From positions 2,788,864 to 2,852,863 of the forward strand of contig NW_019091360.1 in assembly GCF_001949145.1 (NCBI RefSeq): a stretch of DNA of 64,000 bases. The letters are read 5' to 3'. Position 1 is the stretch's first letter. Every line of letters starts with the position of its first letter. Below are positions 1,650 to 28,028 of this stretch, one piece after another. The notes below the pieces were generated by a model. The model was not told the DNA's origin and ran no database searches. It saw only the letters and a list, made by a program, of their open reading frames with translations. This stretch comes from Acanthaster planci (Eukaryota). A program made the translations under genes and the position numbers.

Positions 1650-2024
1650 ATGTAAATATCATTAATTTTGGATTTTTGCCCTGCTCGACGTGTGTTATAA
1701 CACTGTATACTCAGTGTTTGCCGCCGAAGGCTTCTGAAAAAACCCACAAGCGTACTCGGGTGGGACTCGAACCCATGACATCCTGATTACTAGTGCAGAC
1801 GTCTTAACCACTCGACCACTGTCAGCTGGCTGGTTTGAGTCAGATGTAGCAGAGGGTACTGCGAAAAACTATTTCCAAGGATGGATTTGCGCTGATTTTT
1901 CCACAAGCCTTCGGGGGCAATCACTGAGTATACAATGTATTATTATACACGTCGGGCAGGGCAAAAATCCAAAATTAATGAACTTCCCCTGGTACAAATC
2001 CATCCTTGGAAATGTAAATATCAT
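1650..2024. mobile_element. tRNA-derived SINE-like element in an inverted (fold-back) arrangement, flanked by a 13-bp direct repeat
   Basis: Minus strand 1752-1820 has an A box (TGGTCGAGTGG) and a B box (GGTTCGAGTCC). 1660-1742 is an imperfect inverted repeat of 1896-1980. ATGTAAATATCAT occurs at 1650-1662 and 2012-2024. Confidence 0.75.
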
Positions 2025-7049: not shown

Positions 7050-7320
7050 GGGTCATTCTACAAGGGTAAGGCACTGCTTGTGATGGTGTCAGTTGTTCAT
7101 TGGTTCCGTAAAGAATGAACAGCTATTTCCCTGCATGCGGATTCCAAAATGACGTTGTTGTACATCTTGCAAGGCTGAAGACAGAAGTGTGTGTGATTTT
7201 CACAGAGTACATGTACATGTAATTGTAAATGACGTCATGACAGAGGGGAAAAATTTCGCATGCCCTGGATGTAACAAGTGACACGGTCACAAATTGTGCT
7301 CCTTGTAATTACGGAAATGA
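7050..7320 (+). mobile_element. MITE family 1 copy with eroded right end
   Basis: Colinear similarity to 13387-13651. Confidence 0.75.
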
Positions 7321-9599
7321 AATGTAACCAATTCCCCAACTGTGCTGACGGAGACTGTTCAAAAAACAAATGCACTGGTATACATGTACACGTACACTAC
7401 ATGTACTGGGACCTTTTATTTCAGTGCCACTCGTCTTTAAATTTTATTTCAAATTGAAACAACATCTGAAAAACTGATTTTAGTTTTAGAAGCACCGGGG
7501 TACTTGATTGCAAATTTCAGTTTTATATTTTTCATGTTTATACATTTGCCAGTTTTTAAAAACATTTTTGCATTTCTGTGGTTGACAGATGTACCTTAGC
7601 AAGGTCCATTTCATTTCTCTACACACAGGTTTTTCACATGCCTGAAAACCACACTGTAAAAAAAACCCTCTCCTGTAATGTTAAACAAGCTCGTAAATTA
7701 GAAAGCAATGTCAACCAGCCATCTGTTGTTAGAAAATAGAGAGAGAGAAAAAAAACAACAGGGGTTGTTGCCCCAAATGCATTGTTTGCAAATGAGGGAA
7801 ATGCAGGATAGCAGGACCACAGAATATCCTAAGGGTGAATCATCAGGTACATTGTGATTGTGCATGCACATGTACCCTGTAGGCACTGTATGTCCATCAT
7901 AGAACCAGGTGTCCGGAAACAGGATGTTCACTGGAACAATTAATGTGTAATGTCTGCTGTTGACTGACAGTCAGTGGATGAGTTGTTCACACTTGCACAG
8001 GTGCATTCTGCATGTTCATGTACGTACGTGTATGTAAATGTACATATTGCTACGTGTTTGGTTTTCTGAGAAAATGTGTTCATACCCCGGTGCACGCACT
8101 GTACACAATTTTAATCAATTGTGTTGCACAATGTTCCTTTTCACAAAGTTATGATGAACAACTTAAACAGGTGGACTGATATTTCCTTATACATGGACGG
8201 TAGTTGTCCTATTTGACACGCATTTTATTCATATTGAAACTGTGTACTCTGCTGTATGTACATGTAAATATACCGGTATCATGATGCACAAATTTATGTT
8301 CTTCATGTCATTGCAAAAAGTGAAAACAACTGTGACAAACACTCAAAATAAATTAGCAGTAATTAGAAGGCAACGACCAGGCAGAAAAATCTGCCGGTAC
8401 CCGATATATGTGTGATGGGCATTCATCTTTGTCTTCACTGTGCAAGCAAAATGTTTTGGTTTTTTTTTGAAATTATGGAGAAGTTTTACAAAAAAATTTC
8501 TGTCTTGAAATTTACGTGTACATGTGCAAAACGGAGACAGCTTGTATTCCTTGTTAAGAGACCACAGTTTATACAAACATGTAGAAAGGTTGATTGATGT
8601 ACATTGTAATGGACTGTGCTCTATGTATCATGGGAGTACCCGTGGCTTATTTGCATAATTCACCGTTTCGTGGAAATCCAGCCGCCCATTGTCCAGATTG
8701 CAATTAGTCTGTCAGAGCGACGTCTTGTGAGGAGGCAGTAGGGTACATGTACATGTATTGTGTACAGATAGTCTGAGACAATGCAGTACTTGGGCATTGT
8801 AACAGAAAAAAAATTGCTCAAGCTACAGTACATGTACAAAGGTGTCATTAGATTGTCTGGGTAAGTACTTGTATGTATTATCATGAGGTGGAAGGTGTCT
8901 GGGGACATACCGGTATGTACTAAAATCAACCAAACTTGATTTACAAGTGTAAGAAATGACCAATTCCCAGTTTGTCAGGGGTGCATACATGTACAATTAG
9001 TTTCTCAGTGCTGAGCTTTAATGCCAGACAAGAAATGTACATTGTACAATTCTCTGTTGCACCAAAAGCAAAGTTTAATTTATATATACATGTACATGTT
9101 CATGTGTCGTTGAAAGAAAAAAAAAAAAACAAATTAAAAGAAAAATATTGCATTGACATTTGACAATGCAAAATCATATTTTCACTATTTTTAGCTTTTC
9201 CTTGTTGTAAAACTGGAAATGCTGTAATAAGTGAGGGCAAAAAACTGTTGTGAGTAGGATTTGGGGAATTCGACCCCATCACCGTGTTTATTTGTTCCTG
9301 CATAGTTTTGCAATTTTTTGCATAGCTCTTGCACACAAACTGTCGGGTGGGAGTGCTTATGTGTAGAGTGTACTTTGTACGCTCACATGCCAGTCATGTT
9401 CCACCAACACAATGTGTCCCTTCATGTTTTGCATAGTTTTGCACAATATGCACACCATCAGTAATGCACACACACATGCATGCACTGTACGTACATGATC
9501 ACCTTGAATGCTCACTATTTGCCTTGAATGCTTGCCCGACACGTACACGTACATGTACATGTATGTTACATGCTCGTGCACTGGTACTGTACGTGAGTT

Positions 9600-9934
9600 C
9601 AAGGGGGCGGTCGGTTAAACGTCAACCAGCAGAGAGGAGATTGCCCTTGCTGAACCTTAAGATGACTCATCTTCCATCCCTCATCTCATCTCTTGGAGGA
9701 TGCGGGCCGTGTGTGATGTAAGAGGTAGGATGCTGAGCCGGGAGGGGTTTGTTCTTCCCAGATAAAGGCCTGCTGAGTGGTTGTCGTGTCGTGGCACGTC
9801 TAGTGTTTGGTGCGTTTATATGTTCACTACTTCCAGATAAACAGGATTTGGAGTGGAATATTCTGGCCTCCATATAGTCATCAGCTGTGTGTATATTTTG
9901 CTGTCTTAAAGACAAGAATTCGTCACTCACAAGG
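9600..9934 (+). promoter_or_regulatory. Candidate promoter and non-coding 5' exon of the Bcl-2-family gene
   Basis: GC box GGGGGCGG at ~9603, locally higher GC/CpG, donor-like AAGG|GTAACG at 9935, matching acceptor at 10747 just upstream of the ATG. Confidence 0.3.
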
Positions 9935-10259
9935 GTAACGTTTCCTCTACGGTGTACATGTAGAAGTCAGGGGTACTTAAATTCTGTATCAGTACGGTAG
10001 GTGTACACTCTAGACAGTGTAATCAGTAGACTGTTTAGTTTGGAATTGTTAGTTTCTGCATTTTACACATGTACAGTGCACCTCTTCTGTACATTTTTTT
10101 TTCTTCAAATAAACATCAGCACAAATGTTTGTAGTGATTTGTGTATATGAAGTGAATGCCACACAAATTGTATTGTGTACCACACACATGTACATACATG
10201 ATAATGTAACAAGGCAAAATGTACATGTATGTATGTAAACTTGTACGTGTACATTTCAG

Positions 10260-10332
10260 TTAACCCTAACAGTCCCAAATTCTCCCATTTCAATACGATT
10301 TTACATACACGCCAGGGGCTTAGGGTTTTAAT
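10260..10332. mobile_element. Second copy of the piggyBac-like micro-MITE
   Basis: TTAACCCTAACAGTCCCAAAT..CATTTCAATACGATT..ACATACAC shared with 60504-60571. Confidence 0.6.
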
Positions 10333-10836
10333 ATTCATGTAGTGGTACATTGTACATGTACACCTGTACATTGTACATTGTACCTTTACACATGAACTGG
10401 TACCGTACATGTGCCTAAAAAAGTACATGTACATGTACATGTACGGTTCCTTTTCACATTTTGCAGACAGTCTGAAATTAACGGTATGTTCTTTCAAACC
10501 AACATTCATAATGTCCTAATGTGAATTAAATATACTGTAAATCATGTTAATTGTTACTGGGCCGACCGGTCTGTTGACATTTTCATCTATTGTACATTTA
10601 TACTTTAGTATCATGTATTGGATTCTTATTATTATAGATGACATTTTATTATTTTTGTGACACCAAGTTGTTCTCTATTTGTTATGCTGTTGGTTAGATG
10701 CTGATTTCAATAGATGTTACAGACTTATCTTTTTTGGTTTTGTACAGGCTAATTGATCGATTGTTGTGAAACTGAACTCTAACTGCGTGGTATACTAGTG
10801 ACCTACCAAAGCTGCATTGATTAGCAGTGTGTAACC

Positions 10837-12313
10837 ATGGACTCCACACCAGACACTGGTCACCAGCTGGCAGACGTCCGGCTGAACTCGGCAACAACGC
10901 TGGAGATGGAGACATCCGGAGAGATACCTTACATGGATGCGGACGAGCCCGCTCCATCTCCCCCCTCCTCCCGATCGGGAACCCTAAAGGCCCGGAAAAG
11001 CTCCAAGGGGCGGAGCCCTAAATGCTCCCCACTGATGGTGAACAAGGAGAGCAGCATCCCCATTGTCAAGAAGGAGGCAGAGAAGGTCATGGAGATGTTC
11101 TTGAAGAGGCGGAGCATGAGCATGAACGATGCCATCCTGCAGAAGGAATTCTTCAGTCAGGAACGGAGGAGAAAGAAAGACCGCGCCCCACGGAATAACA
11201 CAGTCTCGATTTGTTCCACAATGAGCACAGACTCCAGCGACTACCGCAACAGTGGAGATTTTGAGGAGGCCACCCTGACAAGAAGCAAGGGGAGCTTCAG
11301 CAGAGCTTTGGAGAACTCTGTTTTGCCGGGAGATGTGCGGCGCGAACAGTCATCGGCAGACGACGAACTGTCATCGTCTGATCATGAAATGGACAAGGAG
11401 AAGTCTCGTTCAGCTCCGTCCACCCTTCGCTTGCAGGTTGGTCGGTTGACCGAGGAAGAACTTGAAAAACTGCGGGAAGCAGGCAATGGCTATGCCCAGC
11501 ATGACAAAGATGGCGTTAAGAAAGATGTGAAGAAGAAGGACTTGCCCAAAAGGCGGAAAAGCCTGCTGGACAAAGCCAAGCAAATCATTCGCTCTCCTAG
11601 CATGCAGAGGAAGCATGACCACTCAGAGGAGAAAGAGGCCCCAGTGGGTCCCGATGAAACCTCGGCCAGTCGATCTAAAGTCCACCAAGAGATGAAGCGT
11701 ACTGGCTTTGCCAACAGACTGAAAAGGACATTCAAACGGGACTCCCGCAAAAGCTCTCTGAAGAGTTGCGAGTCAGAGACAAGGACTCCCACCCCACCAA
11801 ACTCGGCCTCATCAGAATCCAAAGATGGGAGCAAAACAAGGCGATGGCCGAGTTTCCAGCTCAAGAGGAAGCCGCGGAAGAGTGCGTCGACCCCCACCGA
11901 CGATAGCCTGGCCGGGGCTACGCCCTCAGACACAACATCCAATGCTGACTGGGCCTCGGTCAGCGACTACGACCACACCCAGAGCCTGACGGAGTTTGAC
12001 CGGAGGAAGCTCCTAAAGGAGATCCACAATGGCGTCCAGTTGCGCCATGCCCAGCAGGCTACCGGCAGTGATTCTCAGCTCCACGCCCAGAGGGCGGAGA
12101 AGTTACCATCTCGGAGAAGCGCCCCAGAGCCAGAGCACTGTGGGTTGGGCTCTACGGGCACCCAGACCCCCTCCTCAGTCCTTTCCAGCTCCCAGGAGTC
12201 CGGAATGTCATCTGACTGGTCGTCTGGAGGATCAGGCCAGAGGACACAACGGCCCAGGAGCCTGAACTTGACGAGATCAAGGCGGCACGAACGAGCAAGG
12301 CAGGGACTTAATG
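10837..12313 (+). CDS. Bcl-2-family gene coding exon 1 (BH4-like helix, Ser/Lys/Arg-rich disordered region, WH2-like motif)
   Basis: 494-codon GC-rich ORF. Upstream acceptor TTTTGTACAG ends at 10747. Inferred phase-1 GC donor AATG|GCAAGT. Confidence 0.85.
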
Positions 12314-15300
12314 GCAAGTGAACATTTCAAATAATAGTTAAAAATAGAACAATGCATCCAAATCAACAAGGGACATTCCCCCGCAAAATCTCATCACACG
12401 AACATTGCTCATGACATGCTGCAAGAAAAAAATTCCGTAGGGCACAGAATGGGAAACAGTCCCACAGTCATTAAAATTTTGTTATTTCAGTCAATTTTGA
12501 TTTCTCTAGAAATATTTTTACTCTGTTTTGGAGAGAAATGCCCTTCCCAGTATGTTTAAAGAGACAATCATGAGAATCCTGGGAATTTATGTAAAAGAGA
12601 GGATCAGGTTCTGGCATGTGAGAAAAATTTACATACTCGTGCAAGGTAAAGATTCACTTCAGAAAGGGAAGAAAAACCAACACAGTAAAATTACTATTAA
12701 AGATGATGGCCCTCAAAAATACCAAACTGATCTCCATATTAACTAAACTTTTACATGTATGTGTTTAGTGTGGGTATTTGAGAGTTTGACTCCTGCAGTG
12801 GCATCTTGTTTTTACCGTCCTTGTTTTTGATTCACCCATTGTCGTTTTGCTCAGATGTCTTCAAGTTGGACAGGATTACCCCGGGCCATGTCCGCCGTGA
12901 CACGGACACGCGACAGCCCGTCATGCCCACTGCCCAGGATGACATTGACCCGGACCTGGAAACGGATGGGATCAATGACACTGAGGATGACATGAGCGGT
13001 AGGTCTCAATGGAACATTCTTCTTTGGTAATTTACAAGTGTAATATGATTCGTTGGTGGATAGTCAATACTATTGCCCTAAGGTATTTGACCTTGACAAA
13101 CTAGTCCCCGGTATAGGCCAAGGAAATAGTTTGTCAACTTACATGTACCAATTGGGGCTAATATCAACTATTTGCCCGAACTATACTTTAGGAGTGCAAA
13201 AAAACTGTGATTGAAATATGTGTGCTGCCATCTTTTAATATTCAGCTGGGAGGATGTTTTGACGTGGACAGTAACCCTTTGCGACTCTTCCCCAGTTGCT
13301 TTTGAAAGTGCACACCGAGTCTGTGAGGCATACAGTGTACATGTATTCAACATCTGCGTGGATCATGGCCAACGTGCCTGATAAACGGGTCATTCCACAA
13401 GGGTAGGGCACAATTTGTGATGGTGTCAGTTGTGACATCGGTTCTGTAAAAATGAACAGCTATTTTCCTGCATGCGGATTCCAAATTGACATTGTTATAC
13501 ATCTTGCAAGGCTGAATACAGAGGTGGGTGTTATTTTTACAGAGTACATGACCCTCTAATGACCCACTCTGCAGGTCATGACAGACGGTAAAAGTTACCC
13601 ATGCAACAAGGACACCATCACAAATTGTGCCCCAACCTCATGGAATGACCCAAACGGCAATGTACCAGTTGATACATGTGATGGTGAATGGACCCTTTAG
13701 GCCCCGAGCGACATCATTGTCAATGAATATGGCGCCCTCTCTTGTTTGTGCATGGAATCTATTGCTTTATATGCAGTGGTATGCATAAGTGGCATACGGT
13801 AGCACCACTCACCAATAGAATATTGGAATAAAGAATGTGGGAGTTACTGTGATATCTTTGATTTTGTGGCTCCTGTTGTAAGTTCGAGTTTTTTTCTCTT
13901 GACCAAAGAAGAATATCCTCATTTTTAAGTATTTTTGTTGTTCCCCACAGAATAGACAGATTATTGTGTAGGCTTGTGTGTAATTATGATCAGACATTTT
14001 GTCTAGCAAAGGTACTAATTTCACTGAACACGTGCCAAGGCTGCTTAGAATCTGCACTCTTTTTTTTGGCATGGAGCTTTTTAATTTAGATGTATTCTAA
14101 CTGGGGAATGGTATATCTAAAGTCTTTAAACTGAAAAGAAAAAAAGCCTTGATATCTAAATGTACATGTTCATGTATGTCTGTTTGCAGCATAGTGTCCA
14201 GATTTTCATAGAGCACTGATGAGTTTTTCAGGAAAAAAAACAAACTACTATCTGTGCTGGTAGACATGACGCACAAGGTGGAAAAATGTGTACAAAATAC
14301 CTGTGAAATCTGTGTATAAATTTAAACCTGTCAAAGAAGCACAGGATGATGTAATCAAGACGCCATTGATTGTGGAACTTGATGAAGTAGAGGTAGACAA
14401 AAAAAAAATCCGGAAAAAAGAAAGGCTTTGCTGTAACCACACGAAGTCAAAACTTCAGCCGCCTTTGTTTCCCCCGGCAGTTGATGGGGGCAACGAAGAT
14501 GCGACTTTGCAGAGGCCATCCAAGCGGGAGAGGGAGGAATTCTACAAGCGGATCGCCGACCGGCTGGCCCAGATTGGAGACCGGTTTGTGACAGAGTACC
14601 AGGAGGGTCTGGTCGGGGAAGATGAACAGGCCAGGCCCGTTTCCAGACAGCGAGCGAAGGAGCTGGGAGCATCAGCTGTTCCTATGGAAACGAGCGCGGC
14701 GGCAGCCACCGGAAGTACAGGTGAAGTTTACCGACTGCTCTGAATTTTTTGTTGAAAGAATCCATGCGGTGAAGTTTTCACCTTTTGTTTTGCACCTTCC
14801 TACTCTTCTGCAGTGTACCTTACAATAAGGTACACTCAGGAGTTGGCATCCTGTTAAGGTTGACAATAAAGAAAAGTCCAAGCTTCCCTCGACAACTGAG
14901 GGCGCTGTTACTGCAGTGTCAATCAGTGAAGATGCTCTTTGTTTTTACAGTTCAAATTATGAACCCAGAATTGCTCGAAAAAAAACGTCCGAGCAAGTGT
15001 TGCTTGTTGGCTTATTTTCAAATTACTTACACAACAATAAATCACTAAAGAAAAGGAAATTTAGGATGGCAAAAATGAAACAAAAAGTGAATTCTTGTGT
15101 GCCCACATCAATGCAATATTGAGATTTTTCTCCTTGGCCGACATCACAATTGTGCTTATTAATATTTAAATTTGCATTTGCATTGAAAACCCAAAATGAA
15201 AATAAGGTTAATTGAAACACAGGAGAAAAAATGCCCAAGTCAGTTTTTAGCTAAATGTTCAAAATGTTAAGCACAATATCACCCCTCATTCGGAATGCAC

Positions 15301-18300
15301 TTCGTGTTATTACTTAGCAACAGAATTGCTAAAATTCTCGTATACTAGTGGCGTGTGGGATTGCAAGGACAGTTTGTGTCTACATGTACCGTACATGTAC
15401 ACTTACTAAGATTACATTGCTGAGAAATGAATTTCAACTTCTAAAGCAAAACTGTGTTTTTCCCCTTTTTTTGGGGGGGAGGCTTTGAAATCTTTTCTGC
15501 CTTCCTGGTCAGTGTGAGTCTTTATGATTTGACAATGTTTGTCTTTATTGTGGTTCATCTTGTGGATAATTTTTCAGAATCGGATGATAGACTGTTTGAT
15601 AGCATCGGTGGAAGGATACGGGACCATGTGGATGGTTACCGAGTGGTAAGTAATATCAGCCAATCACAGTGAGGCCTGGTTACCGAGCAGCCCTGTCAAA
15701 CCGTTCAAATACATCGCCAGTGATGTTTCTTTGATCGTGTGGAACGTAGGCATCCACAGATTTTCCAGTGGCAAATATGGTCGTCCTGCTTTTAATTCTT
15801 GGTCCAGATGTGTACTGTGTACTCTAAGCAGCAACTAGAGCAAGTCACCTTCCCAATGCCCACCTTCCCCAGCTTCTATCAAATTGCACATGAAATGCTA
15901 AATCACATGCTTCTGAAGCTGAACATGCAGACTTCAAAACTGTCATTTGATACTAACAAGTTTGGAATACAGGTCTCTTTTTTGTATCAAAGGATATGTT
16001 ACAAGATTAATCATACATGTACATATATATGTTTGTAAGTTTAATAATAATTGATTGTTAAAAGAACTGACAATTTTTGAGTGTTTGTGCACATTTGCCA
16101 AAAATGTACGACACTATTTGCTGGATGCTATATTTTTTATTTCATTTTGGATTTGAGTTTGATTAAATTCATAGACTGATTTTTCTCAACATTTCAGTTG
16201 TCTTTTTAAAATCAGAAACCCAATTTATTTGTTAATTGATTATATTACTTTGATTTGATTTGCTTTTTGTGTTGCAATCCCTTCCTTAGATTGATCTGAT
16301 TGTTTTTGAGCTTCTTAGATTAAGTGGCAATCCAATACAATCGCCTTTGTCACCAGATGTAGATATCACCTCGGTACGTTTCAATAAGGTTTCTCATGCC
16401 ATAACGTGGTTCTTACGTGCTTCATCAAGTAGTTAGCTCATGCACTTTGGACACCCACTAACATGAGGTACTTACATTGACACGCCATTTCCACAATTCA
16501 GCTGCAGTCCATCAATTCCTGGTGGTCAGTGTTACTTTCCTTGAGTCCCATATGAGGCAGCTCAGGTTGGATTCCCACCTTGCACACTACGCAGATGGAA
16601 TTAGCACAGTGACACTGCCCTTTACATTCAATGTGATCAAGGTTCAAATCCTGTCACCTTGTGAAATTGATTCGTCCGCCAATTAACTCTGCAGGCTGTT
16701 TTGCCATCATGCCTCCAAAACGGACATATCCTTCATCATCACCTTCTATCAAAGTTTTTGGCTAAAATCTTAAGGTTAAAATTGGCTTAGATATATGCAT
16801 CAGTTCATCAGCACTGTAAGAAATGATAAGAAAAGATACTTAGCCAGTAAGAAATCAAATTTCCGCTGATGAAGTTACTCCTTCCTGACAGTGTATAGAG
16901 TGTTAGGGCAGTTCTGACATGTTAGTGCTTTGCTCACTTTCCACCTTTGCTAAACCCGAGGTTGAAGTCTTCTCTGAAGCACTGTGAGGATTTAGTCAGT
17001 AATTTTGTTAATGTAATCAGCTTTTTCAATTTTCTCTCTAAACAATTGCAGTGAAATCAGTTATATTATCATATTTAGTTTTTCCAAAATAATTGACACT
17101 CCTTGTAGTTAGGGAACCAAGTTTCCTGTTGAATTTTTTCAATCCTCAGCTTCAGTTTCAAATGTCATTTTTGAGAAAGCAAAATCAGAAAACATAAAGT
17201 TGTCTAATCCAAGACCCAAATTTGTTGTATTTTTATTTGGTTCCAACTGTGAATGTTTGAGAAATGAGTCTGTTTGAAAATGGACATGAAGCAGGATAAT
17301 GCAAAGCTGAGTTAAGAATATGGCCCGAGACTGTCTTTGCTTGATGCCATGGTCACAGAAGACAGGATTCTATGCAGACATCTTCATTCCTAACACCCCA
17401 TAACTGATCCTGCGTCATGCGCACACATTCATTCATGCATTTTGCCCTTCCATGAAAACCCGCACAGATGTAGCATATACGTATTTGTGCTGAAGCACAA
17501 GAGGCAAGGGGTGACATTGACAAGCAGGAGTTTGGTATAGCTTGAATTTTCTGTTCACAACGAGTAATCACAAACATTGGTGTACGCTGTCAGAATGCAC
17601 AGTGTACAAGTAACTCTGTGACAAGAATGACTTTGTAACTGAGCAAGTCTTGTTGAGATAGCTAACATGCTGGCTTAACCCATGGAATGTGGGACATCTA
17701 AATTTCGTTAACAATTTCCACACTAATTGTTCCTATTTATAATTCTCTCCCTTCCTCTTGGCCTTACCCGCGCCCTGTATACACACTGCAATTGACTCCA
17801 TTTATGTTGTATCGGTTGGTCTTTGAACCCCCCCTCCCCACACCAAAAACCCCCTCCCAAACATTTCATTTTACCACCGATATCGCTGCCACAAAATGCT
17901 TTCTTCATCCTCTTGTCACTTTGTTGACACTCTCCATTCCCCATTCCATCCTTCTCCATCCCTGCTCGCTCTCTTGAAATTCCCTGATTGTTTTGTCGTA
18001 ATTTTGAAATATTTTGAAAAAAAAATACCCAAACCAACAACCCACTCCCTGATGCTACCCCCCGCGGCCCTCCTCGCCGCTTCACAGCGCTACAACCAAC
18101 GCCTCCACCCCTTCTCGCCACAGTCAATCCTGTCAGTGGTCCGCGACCACACCTACGCCGTCTTCCGCGACACCATGCAGTCGCTTATTGGCCAGGACAC
18201 GGGCTTTGAGCAGCTGGCCTTGGTCTTCAAGTTCACCAAGCTGGCCATGAAGATCGCCCAGCACTATGGCTCCCGGGCCAACGAAATCAAGGACAACAGC

Positions 18301-18818
18301 CTACGGTACATCGGAGATCGCTTTGCTGCCTGGCTGGACAGCCAAGGGGGCTGGGTAAGGACAAAACTGAATGAGACTCTGTCAATGGTAGCCCTCATAG
18401 AAAGTGAATGACTCACAATATACTTTATCTGCCAAGTAGCATGATGCCCAGTGCTGCAGTTAACGTTGTAAGGTTACACCATCCTCAATCCCTCAAAATC
18501 CTAAAATCCAAGTTGTGGGATTTGAAAGATCTGGGTACTATTATGTCAAGTGAATTTCGCATGAAGACTCACTCGTATACTATGCATAAGTGTGATGTGA
18601 TTGATTTTGGAACTTTCTGCAGTCTAGCATTTTGTGCACCAGTGATATTGTGTTTTAATCGATCCAGAAAGATTCTCATGTGAAATGTTGTTTCCACTGA
18701 TATTCAAGTCTTGTTCCCATTTTCTTCCTCTGACATCCTGCAGGGAGCTGTGGTGTATTCCAGTGACTCAGAAGAAGAAGGGGAACAGTCTCATCATGGG
18801 GAATCGGAAATTGATTAA
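10837..18818 (+). CDS. Bcl-2-family protein, BCL2L12/BCL2L14(Bcl-G)/BID-like, ~744 aa, 6 coding exons (whole gene span)
   Basis: join(10837-12313,12855-12998,14481-14720,15578-15645,18124-18354,18744-18818) = 2235 nt with all splice phases compatible. BH3 IADRLAQIGDRF; BH2 FAAWLDSQGGW followed by the phase-0 intron typical of the Bcl-2 family; no C-terminal TM helix; ends ESEID*. Confidence 0.85.
12855..12998 (+). CDS. Bcl-2-family gene exon 2 (contains LETD|G)
   Basis: TTTTGCTCAG acceptor, G|GTAGGT donor, phase 1-1, open frame DVFKLDRITPG...DLETDGINDTEDDMS. Confidence 0.8.
13387..13651 (+). mobile_element. MITE family 1 (~265 bp, ~41-bp TIR GGGTCATTCCA..., 4-bp TSD AAAC)
   Basis: TIRs GGGTCATTCCACAAGGGTAGGGCACAATTTGTGATGGTGTC / GACACCATCACAAATTGTGCCCCAACCTCATGGAATGACCC; further copies at 7050 and 50337. 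Confidence 0.8.
14481..14720 (+). CDS. Bcl-2-family gene exon 3 (BH3 motif)
   Basis: CCCCGGCAG acceptor, ACAG|GTGAAG donor; EEFYKRIADRLAQIGDRFVTEY matches LxxxGD. Confidence 0.88.
15578..15645 (+). CDS. Bcl-2-family gene exon 4 (68 nt)
   Basis: TTTTTCAG acceptor and GTG|GTAAGT donor. This phase 1-0 exon is needed to join exon 3 to exon 5. Reads ESDDRLFDSIGGRIRDHVDGYRV. Confidence 0.75.
18124..18354 (+). CDS. Bcl-2-family gene exon 5 (core helices, BH2)
   Basis: CCACAG acceptor; SILSVVRDHTYAVFRDTM...FEQLALVFKFT...YIGDRFAAWLDSQGGW|GTAAGG. Confidence 0.9.
18744..18818 (+). CDS. Bcl-2-family gene terminal exon 6
   Basis: CCTGCAG acceptor, phase 0, GAVVYSSDSEEEGEQSHHGESEID*. Confidence 0.75.
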   Translation, partial: GAVVYSSDSEEEGEQSHHGESEID

Positions 18819-21326
18819 TGATGTCATTGTGAGATCACTGCTCATTCTTGCAGAAAACTGTCAATTCCTGAAATGAATTTTTGTTACAGGTATCTAAATG
18901 TATATATGTATTTCTTTGAATGTGTCCACACTTAAAGAATAGAACCTTTGCTTCTTTCTCTCCTTTTACTCCCACATGGATTAGAGATGATATTTTTCAA
19001 GTTTGTTTTGTGCTGTACGACTGTACGTTTGTAATTTTGTAAGAGGTAGGCCCAACTTAGGGCTGCTAAATATGCTAAGCCAATTTGTGCTGTACAGAAA
19101 TCGGTAAAAAATCCGTTTACAACGAGTGTACTATACAGTGCATGTTTTGGTGGTTGGTAACCAGTTTTTCTCAGCCTATTCTCTCTTTGCAAAAACTTAT
19201 AGCCGGTTCAGAGAACCAGGAACGACTATAAATGGACCGTGTTTACATGTAATTGTGTGAAGCTAGCAGTTCGATGTTCTTTATATGGTGGCACCTTGCA
19301 AAGAGTGAATACTGTCTAAGCTCCACACATCTGTGGTCTTAGTAGGTCTTTGAAATTAGGTCTTGGCACAAGTTGTCAATGTCCACTTGCCCAACTGGTG
19401 CAACCTGGATCAGACTCCGTGGTGACATGCTCATGAATTTTTTTGAGAATGGTAAAAACTCAGTGAAAAGCACCTTGTCACTGTCGCGATGCAACCTTGC
19501 TGCTAGGCAGCAGCGTTTTTTCCTCCGTGATGTCTCGTAGTGTTTTTCAAATTCTTGAATAAGAATCATGTTTCCACATTTCTTAGGAATCGATTTCCAT
19601 AGATTTGATTCTAGCAAGTCTGCAGCAAATACGGAAGGGCCTGGACATGTCCACGGGCTAATGTATGTGTGATTTCTTTGAATTGTGTGCTGGAAAATTT
19701 TGATTTCAAAGCAGTTTAAGATAAACAGTTCTATCATGATAGAAATCTGTTGTATTTGTTGGGATGGGTTGACCATTGTACAAGTACATGCAACCACCAG
19801 ATAGATGTCTTCTTCCATGTACCTTTTGCCGATGAAGATTGCAATTAATTTGCAGTGGAATTGCAATTCCTGGGTGGAATAGGAGTAGATTCCAAAACTA
19901 CTGGAATCGCTGAGCACAAATGTTTCTGCAGTGTGACACCTATCAGCACCAGTCTTCAATGCAGTCTTAAAAGCGAGACTTGATAACCAGTTCCGAGGCA
20001 TTTGTTTTCCACTGACCTTGCTCAGACATACCTCGCTTGTCATTAGCTCTGAACTTTCCTGGTTGTTCTGTCTCATACCCTGAATCCAAGTACAGGTTTA
20101 TTTGTTTCATTTCTTTAAGTCACATGTTTCATTTCCACTGTTGGCAGGGCACAGTTTGTAAATAAGGAATGCTTCACCACAATAGATTTTGGAAATGTGA
20201 TCCTTAATTTTTTTGTTTATGTTTTTGTCAATGTACGGAACATGACTTACCTAAAATCCAGTATTCATATACCAGATCTTTATACACGTGTAATTTGTAA
20301 CTCAGATGGTTAATAAACTTGTACATATTCTGTAAGATATCTTGAATTTTAAGAGTGATACATATAAAAAAGTATATCAATCTTTATGAAACGTAGAGTG
20401 GAAATTGATGTACAAACCAGATCAGCTGCAATTAACAATTATTTGGTTATGTACTTAGACGTATGTTTATTCAGGTGTTATTGACCATGGAATTTATGTC
20501 ATTACTTTGATTTTAGTATTTGAAACTTTGTTTTAAATTTCTAGTGCTTGTATTGATTTTCGCTCGCGCATTTTAGAAGACAAATTTTGGCAAGTATGAT
20601 AATATATGTACTGCTCGTGTTAGCCTTGTTTTCCTGGATATTGAAAAAAGAGCCATACTTAATCTGCCCAAAATGTCACAGTGTATTGTAACCAAATGTA
20701 CAAACTTCTGGTAAATTTCATGTTATCACAGCTATAACAGGAATGAACTGTAAAGTACTGATTCCATCAAATTCATGCTAATTGATTTCTTGGATTTTAG
20801 AGTAATTGGGTCTGGGATAATTATTTTCAAAATAATATGAGCCTTTCTGACATCAAAAATAAAATACAGTTCGATGAATTTTGATCCACATTTTGAAATT
20901 TAATGACAGTGGTGCATATTTGCATCATTAGTAACATCTGCTTGTTGTCTTGAAACGGTGCCAAGTTTGAGGCAGCATTATAAACACTCGGCTCTGTTAC
21001 ACACAGTACCATTCTTGGCCAATTTTCATTTTAAGTACCTGGGAATCCTATTTAATATTCACAGTACATTGTGACTGTGACATTTGAACTGCCTGTTTTC
21101 AACAATGATCTCATTGTTGTTCCTGGCAATGATCCATCATTGCCACTAAATCTGATAGTCGTAGCATGATCCAACAAGGCCTTTTGCTTTGTTGCCATCA
21201 AAGTGGTCAAAAGTATCGTGCACTTAACTAAGCCATGTGGTATAATGTGTCATGTGCATGTAGATCCAGTGTTTGCATTCCGTACCAACTGATTTTAGAT
21301 GACATGTTCATTGAATCGTTCCCATG

Positions 21327-21864
21327 GATTAAGTCAAGCAAAGAATATTTGGTGTTGAGTATTCTCATTCATTGCTGCTTGGTGACTGCAAGCCTTTTTC
21401 AAAACATCTCATGATGCTTTGACGACGGTTTATTCTCGGCATAAAGATTTCTGATCTTTTGGCTAATCTACCAGTCAGATCTATTGAGGGGGGCACTAAC
21501 TTTTTTGATGTTGTTGGAACTTTGACAAACTTTGAGATCTCTTGCTCCAGGACAGTGAGTAATACTCCAAAGCACCTGTTTCTTCTTGTTGATTGAGTCA
21601 AGCAAAGAATATTTGGTGTTGAGTATTCTCATTCATTGCTGCTTGGTGACTGCAAGCCTTTTTCAAAACATCTCATGATGCTTTGACGACGGTTTATTCT
21701 CGGCATAAAGATTTCTGATCTTTTGGCTAATCTACCAGTCAGATCTATTGAGGGGGGCACTAACTTTTTTGATGTTGTTGGAACTTTGACAAACTTTGAG
21801 ATCTCTTGCTCCAGGACAGTGAGTAATACTCCAAAGCACCTGTTTCTTCTTGTTGATTGAGTCA
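21327..21864. repeat. Near-perfect 264-bp direct tandem duplication
   Basis: Identical ORF peptides at 21365-21601 and 21629-21883; period 264; GATTRAGTCA at 21327, 21591 and 21855. Confidence 0.95.
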
Positions 21865-24061
21865 GGTTTGAAATACTGGACACTGGGGGATTCAGCTGGG
21901 TAAAGCATGCATCAGGGGCCTAGTCTGTTGACTGCAAACACTTTGATGAAGAAACCTAACTCTACAGGGCCTTAGAATTCATCAACATCTCCAGAATCCC
22001 AAAAGCCAAGCTTTCAAGATCCTTAGTAAAGTCTTACTTTGTGTACCTTAAGTTACAGAATTTTTTCCCTAATGCAAATCAGGTTCTGAAATTTGCCAAC
22101 TGTGCCCGAATTGTCCACCCATCATGCACATATTTACTAGCAATTTCTTTCTTTTTTATAAATTTTTTGACATCGTTTTATGACCAGATTTGTTTTTGTC
22201 AGTTCACTTTGTTAAACAAAGTGAGTATTCCCTACACCCTGTGAGATTCAATGTCGTGTCAGTTACGTGCCTTTTGACTAAAAATTTTCATTTAAATTTC
22301 TTCCTCTTGATATTTAATCCATTCAGAATTGTAAATACATGGACTGTATCTCAGCCACTCCACTGGTTTTTAGAACCGTTACATTTACATGTACAATTTT
22401 ATGTACATTATACATGTATCTCCTGCCATGTGCGAAAACTTCCCACTACATTTATATGTGATAAAAATTCCACAAATTTAAAGAAGTACTTTTTTCAGTA
22501 CCTTCTTTTAACAAAGTGGTGACCTTTTTAACGCATCACTTATTCATGCGGTACATTTTAACAGTCTGTAATTTGTCATGGTTATGTGTAAGATGTATCA
22601 TTCGGTCAGTTCTTTAAAGAAATTGTGAGTTTCCTCAAGGGTAGTTTGCTGTTTTGTTTGTTTTTTTTCTTTCAGCATTCAAGTTTGCAAATCAAAAATG
22701 TGAATAGTGACACACCGTTCCATCATGAGTTCAGATTTGTGGGAATATCCAGCGCCATCAGAAATGTGAATTTTGTAGGTAAAAACTTTAACACTGCGAC
22801 ACTAGTATCTTTAAAATGAGCGTGATATACTGTATTTGTAAAGGTCATGAAGGATTTTTGGTGCTCAAGTATGCCTGGATCTTATATGTTAGAAGGGAAG
22901 TTATAAAGAAATGGCTTGTTAGAGACTGTAGAAATTGCGCCCCCATTTTTATAAGAATTGTAATATAATCCCTGTAGAAAATGCCATTTTCATGAGTACA
23001 TATGATGTAGGGATCGTCTTTAAGAACGTAAACTGTATAAAGATGTCAAGAGTACTTAGTGTACATGTATATTCCATATTGTAGAGTACTACATATTTAT
23101 TTCTAAGATATGTTTGTCTTCTGTTTTTAAATGCTGCATTTGAGAACTGAAGTGAATTTTTCACAGTTTTGATTTCATGGTAATCGACGGTTATGAGCTT
23201 GGACAAAATTTTGTTCGAATCTATCATTTTTCCTGCGTGGTACAAATTACCTATTATGCTGAAAATGTGTCACACAAGATTTGTGCCTATTTTTGGGTGT
23301 GGAGAAAGGGTTAGTAAGGGTCAACACAATTGAGTTACTGGCCTGTGTGGAGATTTATTATTTGCTCATAATGTTCTGCTTTGCAAAAATGGGTTACCAG
23401 TGTAAATGCCATGCAATGTCTTTTGCAGCTGGTACTCGGTAGATGTTCGTCAAGCATCTGGCGTTTAGCCTGAGGAGAATTTCCCTCTTTGTGAAGTTGC
23501 ACTTGGGGTCAGGAATGAACAATTTTTGTCCAAGACGAAACTTAAGTAATGTGCAGGTGTGCTTAATCACGATATTAAGGAGAGAACCAATTTGCAAGTT
23601 GTTTGGGAATGTTAGGCAGCTGTAAGTGAACCATGGACCAATGATGCATATTTCTGCAATCCTGCTTTTAAAGTAGAGGGCCATTTATGTCCCACTTTAG
23701 TGGAAAAAAGAATGGGATTGAGCTTTTGAAGCTACTGCAATATTGTGTTCAAAACATGTTAAGATATAATTTTAGAATGAGCAGATATGTCAGTCCATGC
23801 ATACATGCATGTGGTATCCAAGCAAGCTTCTTTTGGCATGGCTCACAGCCAGTTGTGCTTGATATTCATGAAACTTGTTTTGCTGTGTAGTTAAAAGTTG
23901 CATTAAAGATGGAATTAAAGACGAATTGAAAAGGAACAAAGAGCTTTATTGGCCCTGCATGTTATTTTCTTCCCAGATTAAATATGTTTTTGAAGTATAG
24001 AGATTCCTTGTGTAAACATTTTACTGTCATATCCACCGTCCTTCGGAGAAAACCTACGGGG

Positions 24062-27790: not shown

Positions 27791-28028
27791 TGAGCAGTTG
27801 GTATTGTTCTCAACCTTACCACATTAAAGATGTAGTTTTTTGGCATAGAGTAGATGTGAATTTTTATATTGAAGACTTGTGAAATTGAATTTGGATATCA
27901 GTCTCGAAGATTTCTTGATCAATATAAGTTATTGCAGAGGAGAACTACATGTTCCTAAAGAAACTGTCTTTAGATTTGATAGGAACTGTAGCATGTTCCT
28001 ATTAAATTGTTTCATATTTCAGTTAGAG

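What the first reader, a model, noticed from the sequence alone, without database searches (positions are those of the whole stretch)
10837..18818. Invertebrate Bcl-2-family protein combining a WH2 actin-binding motif with a BID-like caspase-activated BH3 module and a Bcl-G-like core
Seen: the spliced ~744-aa protein has a BH4-like helix (VKKEAEKVMEMFLKRR), ~450 aa of disordered sequence containing a WH2-like motif, then LETD|G, BH3 IADRLAQIGDRF, core helices, BH2 WLDSQGGW, no TM, and a SEID C-terminus. Known: BID is activated when caspase-8 cleaves a loop before BH3; BCL2L12/14/15 have BH3 and BH2 without a TM; WH2 motifs bind G-actin. Inference: an apoptosis regulator tethered to or sensing actin, whose pro-death C-terminal half is released by caspase cleavage. 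I do not know of this architecture having been described.
Basis: partly seen in the sequence, partly recalled or inferred. Interest (0 to 1): 0.85.

Follow-up and report, generated by a model that had tools for sequence, protein, structure and literature searches.

The report
Starfish long Bcl-G-like Bcl-2 protein
A crown-of-thorns starfish gene makes a 744-residue protein in which, as RNA reads show, a long low-complexity front half is spliced to a Bcl-2-type cell-death domain that has no membrane anchor; it belongs to an unnamed family found across invertebrates, is likely the counterpart of vertebrate Bcl-G/Bfk, and is predicted to be released by caspase cutting.

Summary
The window is Acanthaster planci. 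RNA contigs and raw reads join exon 10837-12313 to the downstream exons, giving exactly 744 aa (NCBI model LOC110985049 X2, 756 aa, uses another acceptor that reads also support). LETD|G, IADRLAQIGDRF, WLDSQGGW, no TM and SEID-COOH are all present.

Two labels change. A 111-sequence family profile matches Bcl-xL at E 2.8e-11. It puts IADRLAQIGDRF on Bcl-xL's first helix (the BH4 position), and puts a second, degenerate BH3 (LFDSIGGRIRDHVDG, small exon 15578-15645) on the true BH3 helix.

The protein is not a one-off. A profile search found 120 relatives in echinoderms, hemichordates, amphioxus, molluscs, brachiopod, bryozoan, nemertean, annelid and priapulid; every name found says "uncharacterized" or "hypothetical".

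Caspase-type xExD|G motifs 27-50 aa before the first BH3 occur in 17 of 51 members (3.1 expected). The acidic x-[LIVM]-D C-terminus occurs in 31 of 46; human Bcl-G's EEVD end binds TPR proteins.

The WH2-like motif is below the Pfam threshold and confined to echinoderms.

Verdict: interpretation partly supported; a new variant of a known kind (Bcl-G/Bfk class).

The parts
9531..9722 (+). 5'UTR exon
   Evidence: RNA contig piece and joint 9722>10746
10746..12313 (+). First coding exon (ATG at 10837): 492 codons of conserved low-complexity N-terminal half; ends at a GC donor (G|GCAAGT)
11065..11112 (+). It lies outside the Bcl-2 fold.
   Evidence: Conserved in all 6 echinoderm proteins, in crinoid and hemichordate; position
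11401..11418 (+). KSRSAP (aa 189-194) within the invariant SRSAPSTLR block. It resembles a 14-3-3 mode-1 site (the motif is recalled, not tested).
   Evidence: Invariant run in alignment A1
11998..12054 (+). WH2-like motif DRRKLLKEIHNGVQLRHAQ (aa 388-406)
   Evidence: Pfam WH2 E 0.004-0.008, 16-17 bits, below the 23.1 threshold; conservation pattern
12855..12998 (+). Exon with the invariant GLNDV/TPGHVRR block and an acidic stretch
   Evidence: Joints; alignment
12956..12967 (+). LETD (aa 527-530) followed by Gly: caspase-type site, 38 aa before the first BH3 motif
   Evidence: sequence; recurrence in the family
14481..14720 (+). Exon with the BH3-A helix and the start of the flexible linker
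14552..14587 (+). BH3-A: IADRLAQIGDRF (aa 565-576). It has a BID-like BH3 signature but is aligned to the first helix (BH4 position) of Bcl-xL.
15578..15645 (+). Small exon ESDDRLFDSIGGRIRDHVDGYRV: the helix at the structural BH3 (alpha2) position, with a degenerate BH3 (Val in place of Gly)
   Evidence: joints
16290..16373 (+). Alternative 28-aa cassette exon (IDLIVFELLRLSGNPIQSPLSPDVDITS), inserted after the alpha2 helix
   Evidence: Joints 15644>16289 (6 reads) and 16372>18123 (6 reads); homologous insert in Asterias P0003
18088..18354 (+). Core exon (alpha3-alpha7, BH1-like GFEQLALVFKF, BH2). It has two acceptors, 18088 (756-aa form) and 18124 (744-aa form), and ends exactly after the GGW Trp codon.
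18331..18354 (+). BH2 motif WLDSQGGW (aa 725-732)
18744..18818 (+). Last coding exon: 24-aa acidic tail GAVVYSSDSEEEGEQSHHGESEID plus the stop codon. It takes the place of the TM exon of classical Bcl-2 genes. The 3'UTR runs on to about 20309.
18804..18815 (+). C-terminal SEID-COOH, an EEVD-like motif
   Evidence: Invariant in 6 of 6 echinoderm proteins; family statistics; human Bcl-G EEVD data

Best explanation
The gene encodes an RNA-confirmed 744/756-aa cytosolic protein: a conserved low-complexity N-terminal half spliced to a C-terminal Bcl-2-family domain with BH2 and no membrane anchor. It is a member of an unnamed bilaterian family that is likely the invertebrate counterpart of vertebrate Bcl-G/Bfk.

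Shown:
- the splicing and the isoforms;
- homology of the family to Bcl-2 proteins;
- the order of parts: IDR, caspase-type site, BH3-A helix, ~35-aa flexible linker, second (alpha2) BH3 helix, core, BH2, acidic tail ending S-E-I-D;
- the phyletic spread of the family.

Inferred mechanism:
1. At rest, the BID-like BH3-A helix would pack on the core as helix alpha1.
2. The basic N half (59 kDa, pI 9.5) would hold the acidic C-terminal module (25 kDa, pI 4.9) in check. It would also tether it through short motifs: RRxS and [RK]SxSxP phosphosites and, in echinoderms, a WH2-like helix that may bind G-actin.
3. The SEID-COOH end would dock to dicarboxylate-clamp TPR proteins, as the EEVD end of human Bcl-G does.
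4. Caspase cleavage after LETD530 would free the intact 214/226-aa Bcl-2 module. Its invariant BH3-A would then engage multidomain Bcl-2 proteins.
For: Splicing and isoforms.

Bcl-2 homology:
- The family profile A3 (111 sequences) hits Bcl-xL 7wjh_A at E 2.8e-11, aligned over chain residues 4-154.
- Pfam Bcl-2 matches 91 of 111 members at E<=0.01. Two of the 47 family proteins exceed the gathering score.
- The AF2 model on A3 has core residues 160-245 at pLDDT 93-98.
- In a search of 48,161 chains, rows 1-16 are all Bcl-2-family proteins: Bcl-xL Z 8.3, rmsd 2.5, 90 aligned; human BFK Z 8.1, rmsd 2.1, 84 aligned, 21% identity, the highest identity in the list.
- The exon ends exactly after GGW. 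This is the conserved Bcl-2-family exon boundary (review PMC8998228, passage read).

Bcl-G/Bfk class:
- The nearest named ESM-Atlas clusters are BCL2L14 (0.86, 0.85) and BCL2L15 (0.85) (a lead only).
- There is no NWGR and no TM.
- Human Bcl-G ends in EEVD and loses AIP/FKBP51 binding when its last 5 residues are deleted; Asp0 and Val-1 are the anchor residues (PMC6212638, passages read).
- In the family, 31 of 46 long members end in x-[DEF]-[LIVM]-[DE], and 20 of those in S/T-E-[LIVM]-D.

Caspase site: xExD[GSA] lies within 75 aa before BH3-A in 17 of 51 members against 3.1 expected from shuffles. The strict motif occurs in 10 of 51 against 0.4 expected. Positions run from -15 to -50, and 16 of the 17 members have one at -27 to -50. 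The motifs (LETDG, LEVDG, DEVDG, IETDG, IEVDG, VEIDG) come from several phyla. Human Bfk has a DEVD site in the loop before its BH3 (PMC8814693, passages read).

BH3-A:
- KRIADRLA is invariant, and the following IGD is identical in all 6 echinoderm proteins.
- It shares 7 of 10 residues with the BID BH3 printed in PMC8814693.
- Pfam BID scores 23.4 bits on the C-terminal piece.
Against: - No vertebrate Bcl-G or Bfk sequence could be aligned here. None of the 20 named proteins among the 30 hits looked up is a vertebrate protein, so orthology rests on indirect evidence.
- The A. planci protein is itself below Pfam's Bcl-2 threshold (22.9-25.6 bits against 31.4).
- The structural Z of about 8 is only slightly above unrelated helical rows (6.8), and Foldseek found no match with E<=0.001.
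- The model does not place helices alpha1 and alpha2 with confidence (pTM 0.44; alpha2 pLDDT 53-77).
- 34 of 51 members lack the caspase-type motif. These include holothurians, Diadema, hemichordates and amphioxus.
- 15 of 46 long members lack the acidic-[LIVM]-[DE] end.
- WH2 is below threshold and lineage-restricted.
- Mammalian Bcl-G's role in apoptosis is disputed (review PMC10244440, passages read; the title 'Bcl-G acquitted of murder!' was seen only in the listing).
Confidence: 0.55

Rival explanations
1. It is a Bcl-G-like scaffold with no death-ligand role. The Bcl-2 fold is inert, as full-length Bfk is; IADRLAQIGDRF is only the structural first helix; the LETD-type motif is an acidic linear motif that caspases do not use. 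The protein would then act as a phospho-regulated hub in trafficking, cytoskeletal or inflammatory signalling, with TPR co-chaperone docking at the C-terminus.
For: - BH3-A aligns to the BH4/alpha1 position of Bcl-xL.
- The NWGR motif is absent. Full-length human Bfk, which also lacks NWGR and the groove, binds neither a BH3 peptide nor other family members (PMC8814693).
- Recent studies have undermined the apoptotic role of Bcl-G (PMC10244440).
- Holothurians keep DLE[AT]QG without the P1 Asp, as expected of a binding motif rather than a cleavage site.
- 131 of the 196 invariant columns lie in the N half.
Against: - The G-D pair of BH3-A, which contacts the receptor groove in known BH3 ligands (recalled), is kept in 34 of the 51 members listed.
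- Motifs typical of caspases (DEVDG, IETDG, LEVDG, VEIDG) are enriched about 25-fold under the strict pattern.
Confidence: 0.3
2. It is primarily an actin regulator. The WH2-like helix and the basic N half bind G-actin or F-actin, and the Bcl-2-like domain is a regulatory appendage; this is the reader's 'actin sensing' idea taken as the main function.
For: - Pfam WH2 hits at E 0.004-0.076 in 3 of 3 asteroids.
- UniRef names the Patiria orthologue 'WH2 domain-containing'.
- The helix part ([DE]R[RQ]K[LM][LIV]x[ED][IM]xxG) is kept in asteroids, holothurians, Diadema and three unnamed records.
Against: - All scores are below the 23.1-bit threshold.
- The LKKV-like part is LR[HRQ]A only in asteroids, LRS[SP] or LRRS in the holothurian rows and the unnamed records that keep the motif, and lost in Diadema.
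- The motif was not found in crinoid, hemichordate, amphioxus or any protostome member by regex. Pfam WH2 at E<=0.01 hit none of the 50 proteins and only 1 of the 111 members of A3.
- There is a single WH2-like copy and no other actin-related domain.
Confidence: 0.1
3. It is an annotation or assembly artefact: two neighbouring genes (an IDR gene and a small Bcl-2-like gene) wrongly fused.
For: In four unnamed database records (P0004, P0005, P0007, P0008) the gene model stops after the first exon, and many hits are single-exon fragments.
Against: - Spliced reads cross 12313>12855 in four runs: 2 contig runs, plus raw reads with 4 and 8 reads.
- One 4009-nt contig spans all the exons.
- The same architecture is present in 6 echinoderm species and in other phyla.
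Confidence: 0.02

Closest known systems
Bcl-G (BCL2L14), vertebrates
   Same: - BH3 plus BH2 without BH1/NWGR and without TM.
- An N-terminal extension before the fold.
- The protein ends shortly after BH2 in an acidic x-E-[VI]-D-COOH. Human Bcl-G ends in EEVD and binds AIP/FKBP51 through its last 5 residues (PMC6212638).
- It is among the nearest named ESM-Atlas clusters.
   Different: - The starfish protein is 744-756 aa against 327 aa.
- It carries an extra BID-like BH3 motif on the first helix.
- Its alpha2 BH3 is degenerate.
- It has a WH2-like motif.
- No direct alignment to Bcl-G could be made here.
Bfk (BCL2L15), crystal structure 7ccl
   Same: - Best structural match by sequence identity: Z 8.1, rmsd 2.1 over 84 residues, 21% identity.
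- BH3 + BH2, no NWGR, no TM.
- A caspase-type site in a flexible stretch before a BH3 helix (PMC8814693).
   Different: - Bfk is 163 aa and has no long IDR.
- Its DEVD site lies between alpha1' and the alpha2 BH3, inside the fold. Here the site lies before the first helix, so the whole fold would be released.
BID
   Same: - BH3-A shares 7 of 10 residues with the BID BH3.
- A caspase-type site lies about 38 aa upstream.
- The Pfam BID model aligns aa 514-586 to its positions 43-106 at 19.7-23.4 bits.
- PDB BID 1ddb is a weak hit, E 0.35.
   Different: - All scores are below the Pfam threshold of 25.
- BID has no BH2; this protein has one.
- The BID-like motif sits one helix earlier than the structural BH3.
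- According to review PMC8998228, Bid first appears in cartilaginous fishes.
Bcl-xL / Bcl-2 (multi-motif pro-survival proteins)
   Same: - Best sequence-profile match, E 2.8e-11.
- Same order of parts: first helix, long flexible loop, BH3 helix, core, BH2.
- Same exon boundary after GGW.
   Different: - No NWGR (GFEQ in the starfish; W-x-Q-[LIV]-A in most relatives).
- No TM exon.
- The first helix carries a BH3 signature instead of a BH4 signature.
- A 540-aa N-terminal extension.
WH2 domain proteins (WASP/WAVE, thymosin-beta4 class)
   Same: The pattern LLxEIxxGxQLR[HRQ]A in asteroids resembles the WH2 helix plus LKKV motif (the consensus is recalled; Pfam hits).
   Different: - Below threshold.
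- A single copy.
- The basic motif is degenerate outside asteroids.
- Not tested on actin.

Membership tests
Bcl-2 family (Bcl-2 fold, Pfam PF00452) | Significant sequence-profile similarity to solved Bcl-2 homologues | tested here: met
   The A3 family profile against PDB gives Bcl-xL at E 2.8e-11, 46.7 bits, aligned over chain residues 4-154. Pfam Bcl-2 matches 91 of 111 members at E<=0.01. The A. planci protein alone scores 22.9-25.6 bits, below the 31.4 threshold.
Bcl-2 family (Bcl-2 fold, Pfam PF00452) | Helical bundle fold around a central hairpin | tested here: met
   The AF2 model has its core at pLDDT 93-98. In the VIA wide search, rows 1-16 of 48,161 chains are all Bcl-2-family proteins, Z 8.3-6.9. 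Caveats: unrelated helical rows follow at Z 6.8, and Foldseek's best E is 0.069.
Bcl-2 family (Bcl-2 fold, Pfam PF00452) | BH2 motif W-x4-GGW with the exon boundary right after the GGW tryptophan | tested here: met
   WLDSQGGW lies at 18331-18354, and the exon ends at 18354 by RNA joints. The boundary rule is quoted from PMC8998228.
Bcl-2 family (Bcl-2 fold, Pfam PF00452) | BH1 with the NWGR motif | tested here: not met
   GFEQLALVFKF stands where Bcl-xL has NWGRIVAFFSF. Bcl-G, Bfk and BID also lack NWGR.
Bcl-2 family (Bcl-2 fold, Pfam PF00452) | C-terminal transmembrane anchor (many members, not all) | tested here: not met
   The highest KD19 is 0.84. The tail is 24 acidic residues.
Bcl-G/Bfk class (BCL2L14, BCL2L15) | BH3 and BH2 only, with no BH1 and no TM | tested here: met
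Bcl-G/Bfk class (BCL2L14, BCL2L15) | Hsp70/Hsp90-like acidic C-terminus (EEVD in human Bcl-G) that binds dicarboxylate-clamp TPR proteins | tested here: inconclusive
   The motif is present: SEID-COOH is invariant in 6 of 6 echinoderm proteins, and 31 of 46 long family members end in acidic-[LIVM]-[DE]. The anchors Asp0 and the aliphatic -1 residue follow PMC6212638. Binding was not tested.
Bcl-G/Bfk class (BCL2L14, BCL2L15) | Direct sequence homology or orthology with vertebrate BCL2L14/15 | tested here: inconclusive
   No vertebrate sequence was obtainable. The support is indirect: the ESM-Atlas lead and the BFK structural match at 21% identity. No vertebrate name appeared among the 30 hits looked up.
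BID (Pfam PF06393) | Pfam gathering score | tested here: not met
   19.7 bits for the full-length protein and 23.4 bits for the C-terminal piece, against 25. 7 of 111 members match at E<=0.01.
BID (Pfam PF06393) | Caspase site in the loop just before the BH3 helix of the fold | tested here: inconclusive
   LETD|G lies 38 aa before BH3-A. However, BH3-A aligns to the first helix of the fold, not to the BH3 helix.
WH2 domain (Pfam PF02205) | Pfam gathering score / helix plus LKKV motif | tested here: not met
   13.2-17.2 bits against 23.1 in three asteroids and no hit elsewhere. The LKKV-like part is LR[HRQ]A in asteroids only.
WH2 domain (Pfam PF02205) | Binds G-actin | not testable with these tools
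   No actin sequence was available for a complex prediction, and no assay could be run.
   The helix lies about 470 aa upstream of the fold. The alpha1 position is taken by the IADRLAQIGDRF helix.

The most novel reading that the evidence does not exclude
This unnamed bilaterian family is the long-sought invertebrate ancestor of the vertebrate BID/Bfk/Bcl-G group. On this reading, a caspase-released Bcl-2 module with a BID-type BH3 and a chaperone-style EEVD-like docking tail already existed in the bilaterian ancestor. Eleutherozoan echinoderms then wired it to the actin cytoskeleton through a newly evolved WH2 motif.
Probability: 0.2. Interest if true: 0.8.

Novelty: new variant of a known kind. 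Interest (0 to 1): 0.55.

Why it matters
- The evolutionary reach of Bcl-G is listed as an open question in its own review (PMC10244440). BID is said to appear only with cartilaginous fishes (PMC8998228).
- A conserved, expressed and entirely unnamed family covers three bilaterian superclades. It combines a BID-type BH3, a recurrent caspase-type site, a Bfk-like core and a Bcl-G-type EEVD-like end. It would give these three 'orphan' vertebrate proteins a common invertebrate relative and a testable ancestral mechanism.
- It also flags the acidic C-terminus, not a TM helix, as the likely targeting device of this branch of the Bcl-2 family.
- For echinoderm biology, it adds one Bcl-2-fold gene. 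The surveys whose passages I read do not name it among the A. planci repertoire (7 Bcl-2 proteins and one 350-aa BH3-only candidate).

Tried and rejected
- AF2 on the 6-sequence echinoderm alignment A2 gave an unusable model (mean pLDDT 39.3). It was replaced by the 111-sequence run.
- Complex prediction with the BH3-A helix (residues 55-98 of the piece) against the core (124-252) returned no answer: score 0.02 against a mark of 0.34, the alignments were not used, and the partner folded poorly. It counts neither for nor against packing.
- The search for homologous proteins gave little beyond the first search. The C-terminal 264 aa at near lengths found 1 hit, a 165-aa fragment. The A3 profile found 9 hits, with nothing outside echinoderms apart from unnamed records.
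- The ESM Atlas gave no usable hit for residues 1-500.
- phmmer of the core exon alone against PDB found only an unrelated designed repeat protein at E 0.29.
- Foldseek against PDB found no match with E<=0.001.
- The genome search 'own': no genome is held for this window, so paralogues in A. planci were not surveyed.
- The look-up of sequencing runs listed no RNA holder. The raw RNA runs offered under the same species label were laid instead.
- Earlier-findings look-ups by place, sequence and words returned nothing.
- Literature. Search 'WH2 + BH3 + Bcl-2 family + actin' gave 14 papers, none on such a protein by title or abstract. Search 'Bcl-G/BCL2L14/evolution/invertebrate' and search 'echinoderm/Bcl-2 family/BH3-only/sea urchin' gave no description of this family. 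PMC11463336 does not mention Bcl-G or BCL2L13.
- The deep branches of the domain tree were unresolved (11 of 23 inner branches open; long-branch warning for amphioxus, the bryozoan and the outgroups). No orthology claim is drawn from it. Priapulus P0085 and Diadema P0124 dropped out of that tree because my BH2 regex missed them.
- The first BH2 regex was wrong and was redone.

Full report
WHAT IS THERE

The window comes from the crown-of-thorns starfish. The 492-codon ORF that starts at 10837 is 100% identical to NCBI 'uncharacterized protein LOC110985049 isoform X2 [Acanthaster planci]' (P0001, 756 aa).

I laid two transcriptome-contig runs and two raw RNA-seq runs on 6000-22000. One 4009-nt contig runs from a 5'UTR exon (9531-9722) through 10746-12312, 12854-12997, 14480-14717, a 70-nt piece (15575-15644), 18123-18353 and 18743-20309. 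Raw reads also show every joint. The disputed joint between exon 1 and the 'BH' exons has 4 reads in X12 and 8 in X16.

A script that joined the RNA-supported exons gave 744 aa. That equals P0001 without RYNQRLHPFSPQ; P0001 uses an acceptor 36 nt upstream, at 18088. Four further raw runs support both acceptors and a third form:
- acceptor 18124: 11 reads;
- acceptor 18088: 6 reads;
- a 28-aa cassette exon 16290-16373: 6 reads into it, all from X12, and 6 reads out of it.

A homologous insert is present in the Asterias protein.

All are present (positions):
- helix VKKEAEKVMEMFLKRR, 77-92;
- WH2-like LLKEIHNGVQLRHA, 392-405;
- LETD|G, 527-531;
- IADRLAQIGDRF, 565-576;
- WLDSQGGW, 725-732;
- SEID at the C-terminus.

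No window of 19 residues exceeds a Kyte-Doolittle mean of 0.84, so there is no TM helix. Two weak, TM-bearing hits from the same search reach 2.0-2.2.

The N half (1-545) is 79% polar or disorder-promoting residues, 18% K+R and 14% Ser. It has no Pfam domain above threshold. I did not run a dedicated disorder predictor.

IT IS A FAMILY, NOT A ONE-OFF

Full-length orthologues with the same order of parts exist in Patiria, Asterias, Diadema, Apostichopus and Holothuria. The six proteins share 196 invariant columns, 131 of them in the N half.

I searched a profile of the C-terminal 264 aa against 1.84 billion representative proteins. It found 120 proteins at E<=0.001 and 56 at E<=1e-10, many of them 450-1055 aa long with the match at the C-terminus.

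I looked up 30 of the 120, and 20 carried a name. Every name was 'uncharacterized' or 'hypothetical':
- crinoid Antedon;
- hemichordates Saccoglossus and Glandiceps;
- amphioxus;
- bivalves Potamilus, Mizuhopecten, Dreissena and Crassostrea;
- gastropods Gigantopelta, Patella and Pomacea;
- brachiopod Lingula;
- bryozoan Watersipora;
- nemertean Tubulanus;
- leech Helobdella;
- Priapulus.

No vertebrate name appeared.

An HMM of the full-length echinoderm alignment detects N-terminal homology only in deuterostomes: the crinoid (positions 75-404), both hemichordates and, weakly, amphioxus (E 5e-5). It detects none in protostomes.

A maximum-likelihood tree of the domain recovers the echinoderm classes in the expected order, with the crinoid outside echinoids, holothurians and asteroids. 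It places two short Dreissena paralogues with the long Dreissena gene. The deep nodes stay open (two rows were dropped by my regex).

IS IT A BCL-2 FOLD, AND WHICH HELIX IS WHICH?

The starfish protein alone is below Pfam's thresholds: Bcl-2 22.9 bits against 31.4, BID 19.7 against 25, WH2 16.3 against 23.1. The family evidence is much stronger:
- Pfam Bcl-2 matches 91 of 111 aligned members at E<=0.01.
- Two members exceed the gathering score.
- The 111-sequence profile hits Bcl-xL in the PDB at E 2.8e-11, aligned over chain residues 4-154.

From my own knowledge this is the BH4/alpha1 helix.
- A second motif, 'LExEIxxCLRxxGDR', lies on Bcl-xL's ...AVKQALREAGDEF, which is its BH3/alpha2.
- W-x-Q-[LIV]-A-x-x-F lies on NWGRIVAFF (BH1).
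- WIxxQGGW lies on BH2.

Spacing agrees. The second motif sits about 95 aa before BH2, as BH3 does in Bcl-G (BH3 212-226, BH2 308-315; PMC10244440). The first motif sits about 160 aa before BH2.

In echinoderms the second motif is degenerate (IGGRIRDHVDG, with Val where BH3 has Gly). It is encoded by the small exon 15578-15645. A canonical second BH3 is present in 32 of 46 long members and missing in 14, among them 7 echinoderm rows.

AlphaFold2 on the 111-sequence alignment gave mean pLDDT 70.2 and pTM 0.44:
- the BH3-A helix at pLDDT about 90;
- a linker below 50;
- the alpha2 helix at 53-77;
- the core (residues 160-245 of the piece) at 93-98.

Foldseek found only Bcl-2 proteins among its listed rows, but none at E<=0.001 (best 0.069). 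VIA-align against 48,161 chains listed Bcl-2-family proteins in rows 1-16. Bcl-xL scored Z 8.3 (rmsd 2.5, 90 aligned) and human BFK scored Z 8.1 (rmsd 2.1, 84 aligned, 21% identity, the highest in the list). Unrelated helical proteins follow from Z 6.8. Taken alone this margin is thin; together with the profile E-value it is sufficient.

Gene structure adds an independent mark. The core exon ends exactly after the Trp codon of GGW. This is the exon boundary conserved from sponges to mammals (PMC8998228, passage read). Classical members encode the TM helix in the next exon; here that exon encodes 24 acidic residues.

CLOSEST CLASS

The protein has BH3 plus BH2, no NWGR and no TM. These are the traits of Bcl-G (BCL2L14) and Bfk (BCL2L15). 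The ESM-Atlas feature search named BCL2L14 (0.86, 0.85) and BCL2L15 (0.85) clusters among its five listed rows (a lead, not a test).

The most telling shared trait is the C-terminus. SEID-COOH is invariant in the six echinoderm proteins. Of 46 long family members with a BH2-like motif:
- 20 end in S/T-E-[LIVM]-D;
- 11 more end in another x-[DEF]-[LIVM]-[DE];
- 15 end otherwise;
- the tails are 8-44 aa long and contain no hydrophobic run.

I recalled that human Bcl-G ends in EEVD and then found it in print. PMC6212638 (passages read) states three things. BclG has the C-terminal EEVD of Hsp70/Hsp90. [quoted passage not shown] Asp0 and Val-1 are the general anchor residues for the TPR clamp.

The family's conserved end therefore fits a known, experimentally supported docking motif of its presumed vertebrate relative. 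I could not obtain a vertebrate Bcl-G or Bfk sequence with the tools, so orthology remains an inference.

THE CASPASE IDEA

For it:
- BH3-A shares 7 of 10 residues with the BID BH3 as printed in PMC8814693.
- The Pfam BID model aligns aa 514-586 (site plus helix) to its positions 43-106, scoring 23.4 bits on the C-terminal piece against a threshold of 25.
- Caspase-type motifs recur at the same place. Among 51 members with a BH3-A and at least 40 aa upstream, 17 carry xExD[GSA] within 75 aa (3.1 expected from shuffles). Ten carry [DL]E[VITLH]D[GSA] (0.4 expected). Sixteen of the 17 have a motif at -27 to -50. Examples are LETDG and LELDG in asteroids, LEVDG in the crinoid, and DEVDG, IETDG, IEVDG, VEIDG and DEIDG in protostome members.
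- Human Bfk likewise has a DEVD site before its BH3.

Against it:
- 34 of 51 members lack such a motif.
- Holothurians keep DLE[AT]QG without the P1 Asp. Diadema, hemichordates and amphioxus have nothing comparable.
- The rows are related, so the enrichment is not a probability.
- BH3-A sits at the first-helix position. Cleavage at D530 would therefore release a complete 214/226-aa Bcl-2 module (25 kDa, pI 4.9) from a 59-kDa basic N half (pI 9.5). BID and Bfk, by contrast, are cut inside the fold.

THE WH2 IDEA

Pfam WH2 hits the three asteroid proteins at E 0.004-0.076 (13-17 bits, threshold 23.1). UniRef names the Patiria protein 'WH2 domain-containing'.

The helix part of the motif is kept in asteroids, holothurians, Diadema and three unnamed records. 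The basic LKKV-like part is LR[HRQ]A only in asteroids, LRS[SP] or LRRS in the holothurian rows and the unnamed records that keep the motif, and lost in Diadema.

My regex found no WH2-like motif in the crinoid, hemichordate, amphioxus or protostome members. Pfam at E<=0.01 hit none of the 50 proteins scanned and 1 of the 111 members of A3. It is a plausible, lineage-restricted actin-binding motif, but it is unproven.

THE 'BH4-LIKE' HELIX

The helix at aa 77-92 is conserved in echinoderms, the crinoid and hemichordates. It lies about 470 aa before the fold, so it cannot be the fold's alpha1. Its function is unknown. It is followed by an invariant LKRRS.

The N half also holds invariant blocks (GTLKA, ADDELSS, SRSAPSTLR, RSPS, TPTD, GLNDV, TPGH) and two [RK]SxSxP sites. 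From recall, these resemble 14-3-3 mode-1 sites.

MOST LIKELY MECHANISM (confidence 0.55 for the whole; the identity part is much higher)

This is a cytosolic Bcl-G/Bfk-class protein whose Bcl-2 module is held by a phospho-regulated, basic, motif-rich N half.
- BH3-A would be packed as alpha1 at rest (inferred).
- The SEID end would dock to TPR-clamp proteins (inferred by analogy).
- Caspase cleavage at LETD530 would release the module (inferred from motif recurrence).
- The invariant BH3-A would then act on multidomain relatives (inferred).
- Alternative splicing at the alpha2-alpha3 junction gives three RNA-supported forms and would tune the module.

The main rival (0.3) is that the fold is inert, BH3-A is purely structural, and the protein serves non-apoptotic scaffolding, as is now argued for mammalian Bcl-G.

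NOVELTY

I found no paper or database name for this family (searches; look-ups). The review whose passages I read counts 7 Bcl-2 proteins and a 350-aa BH3-only candidate in A. planci, and dates BID to cartilaginous fishes.

The protein is a new variant of a known kind. It is a long, tandem-BH3, EEVD-tailed relative of Bcl-G/Bfk, spread across Bilateria, with an echinoderm-specific WH2-like motif.

Noticed in passing
window 27873-36297 and 42251-51000, + strand: Two tandem transglutaminase genes lie downstream. Pfam hits: Transglut_N at E 3e-15 in ORFs 27873-28343 and 42251-42724, Transglut_core in 31923-32255, and Transglut_C (below threshold) in 48584-48967.
   Followed up: partly
window 10260-10445 and 13450-13655: Short stretches in the 5' region and in intron 2 reach very high RNA contig depth (up to about 1400-10000). 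They have many loose ends and 'opposite strands' joints between the two places. They look like copies of an expressed interspersed repeat in inverted orientation.
   Followed up: no
window 12313/12314: The first coding intron uses a GC donor (AATG|GCAAGT), confirmed by spliced reads in four runs.
   Followed up: yes
window 19339-20097, - strand: A 252-aa stop-free frame lies antisense to the 3'UTR. It has no Pfam match at E<=0.001. It may be chance or an old mobile-element remnant.
   Followed up: partly
window ~9400-10520: Runs of a TACATG-type simple repeat, seen as YMYMYM / HVHVHV in the ORF translations.
   Followed up: no
related proteins P0032 (Tubulanus) and P0043: These two family members end in -GTQV instead of S-E-[LIV]-D. 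From recall, this looks like a class I PDZ-binding end, so the C-terminal docking motif may have been swapped in some lineages.
   Followed up: no
related proteins P0025, P0039, P0054 (Dreissena polymorpha): Beside the 859-aa form, Dreissena has two short paralogues (166 and 211 aa), with neighbouring LOC numbers. They group with the long form in the tree at 97/93 support. This is a lineage-specific long/short pair reminiscent of Bcl-G and Bfk.
   Followed up: partly
weak hits P0124 (Diadema, 495 aa), P0125, P0127: These proteins have a single IAxRIAxIGD-type BH3, a BH2, a long tail and a TM helix. Their Pfam Bcl-2 scores are above threshold for P0124 and P0127 (45.5 and 43.3 bits) and below it for P0125 (28.9). 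From recall they resemble BCL2L13 (Bcl-rambo) and may be the nearest outgroup.
   Followed up: partly
window 12855-12930 (aa 493-520): The block GLNDV-x-KLD-x2-TPGHVRRD just before the acidic LETD stretch is invariant or nearly so in all six echinoderm proteins. I know of no motif that matches it.
   Followed up: no
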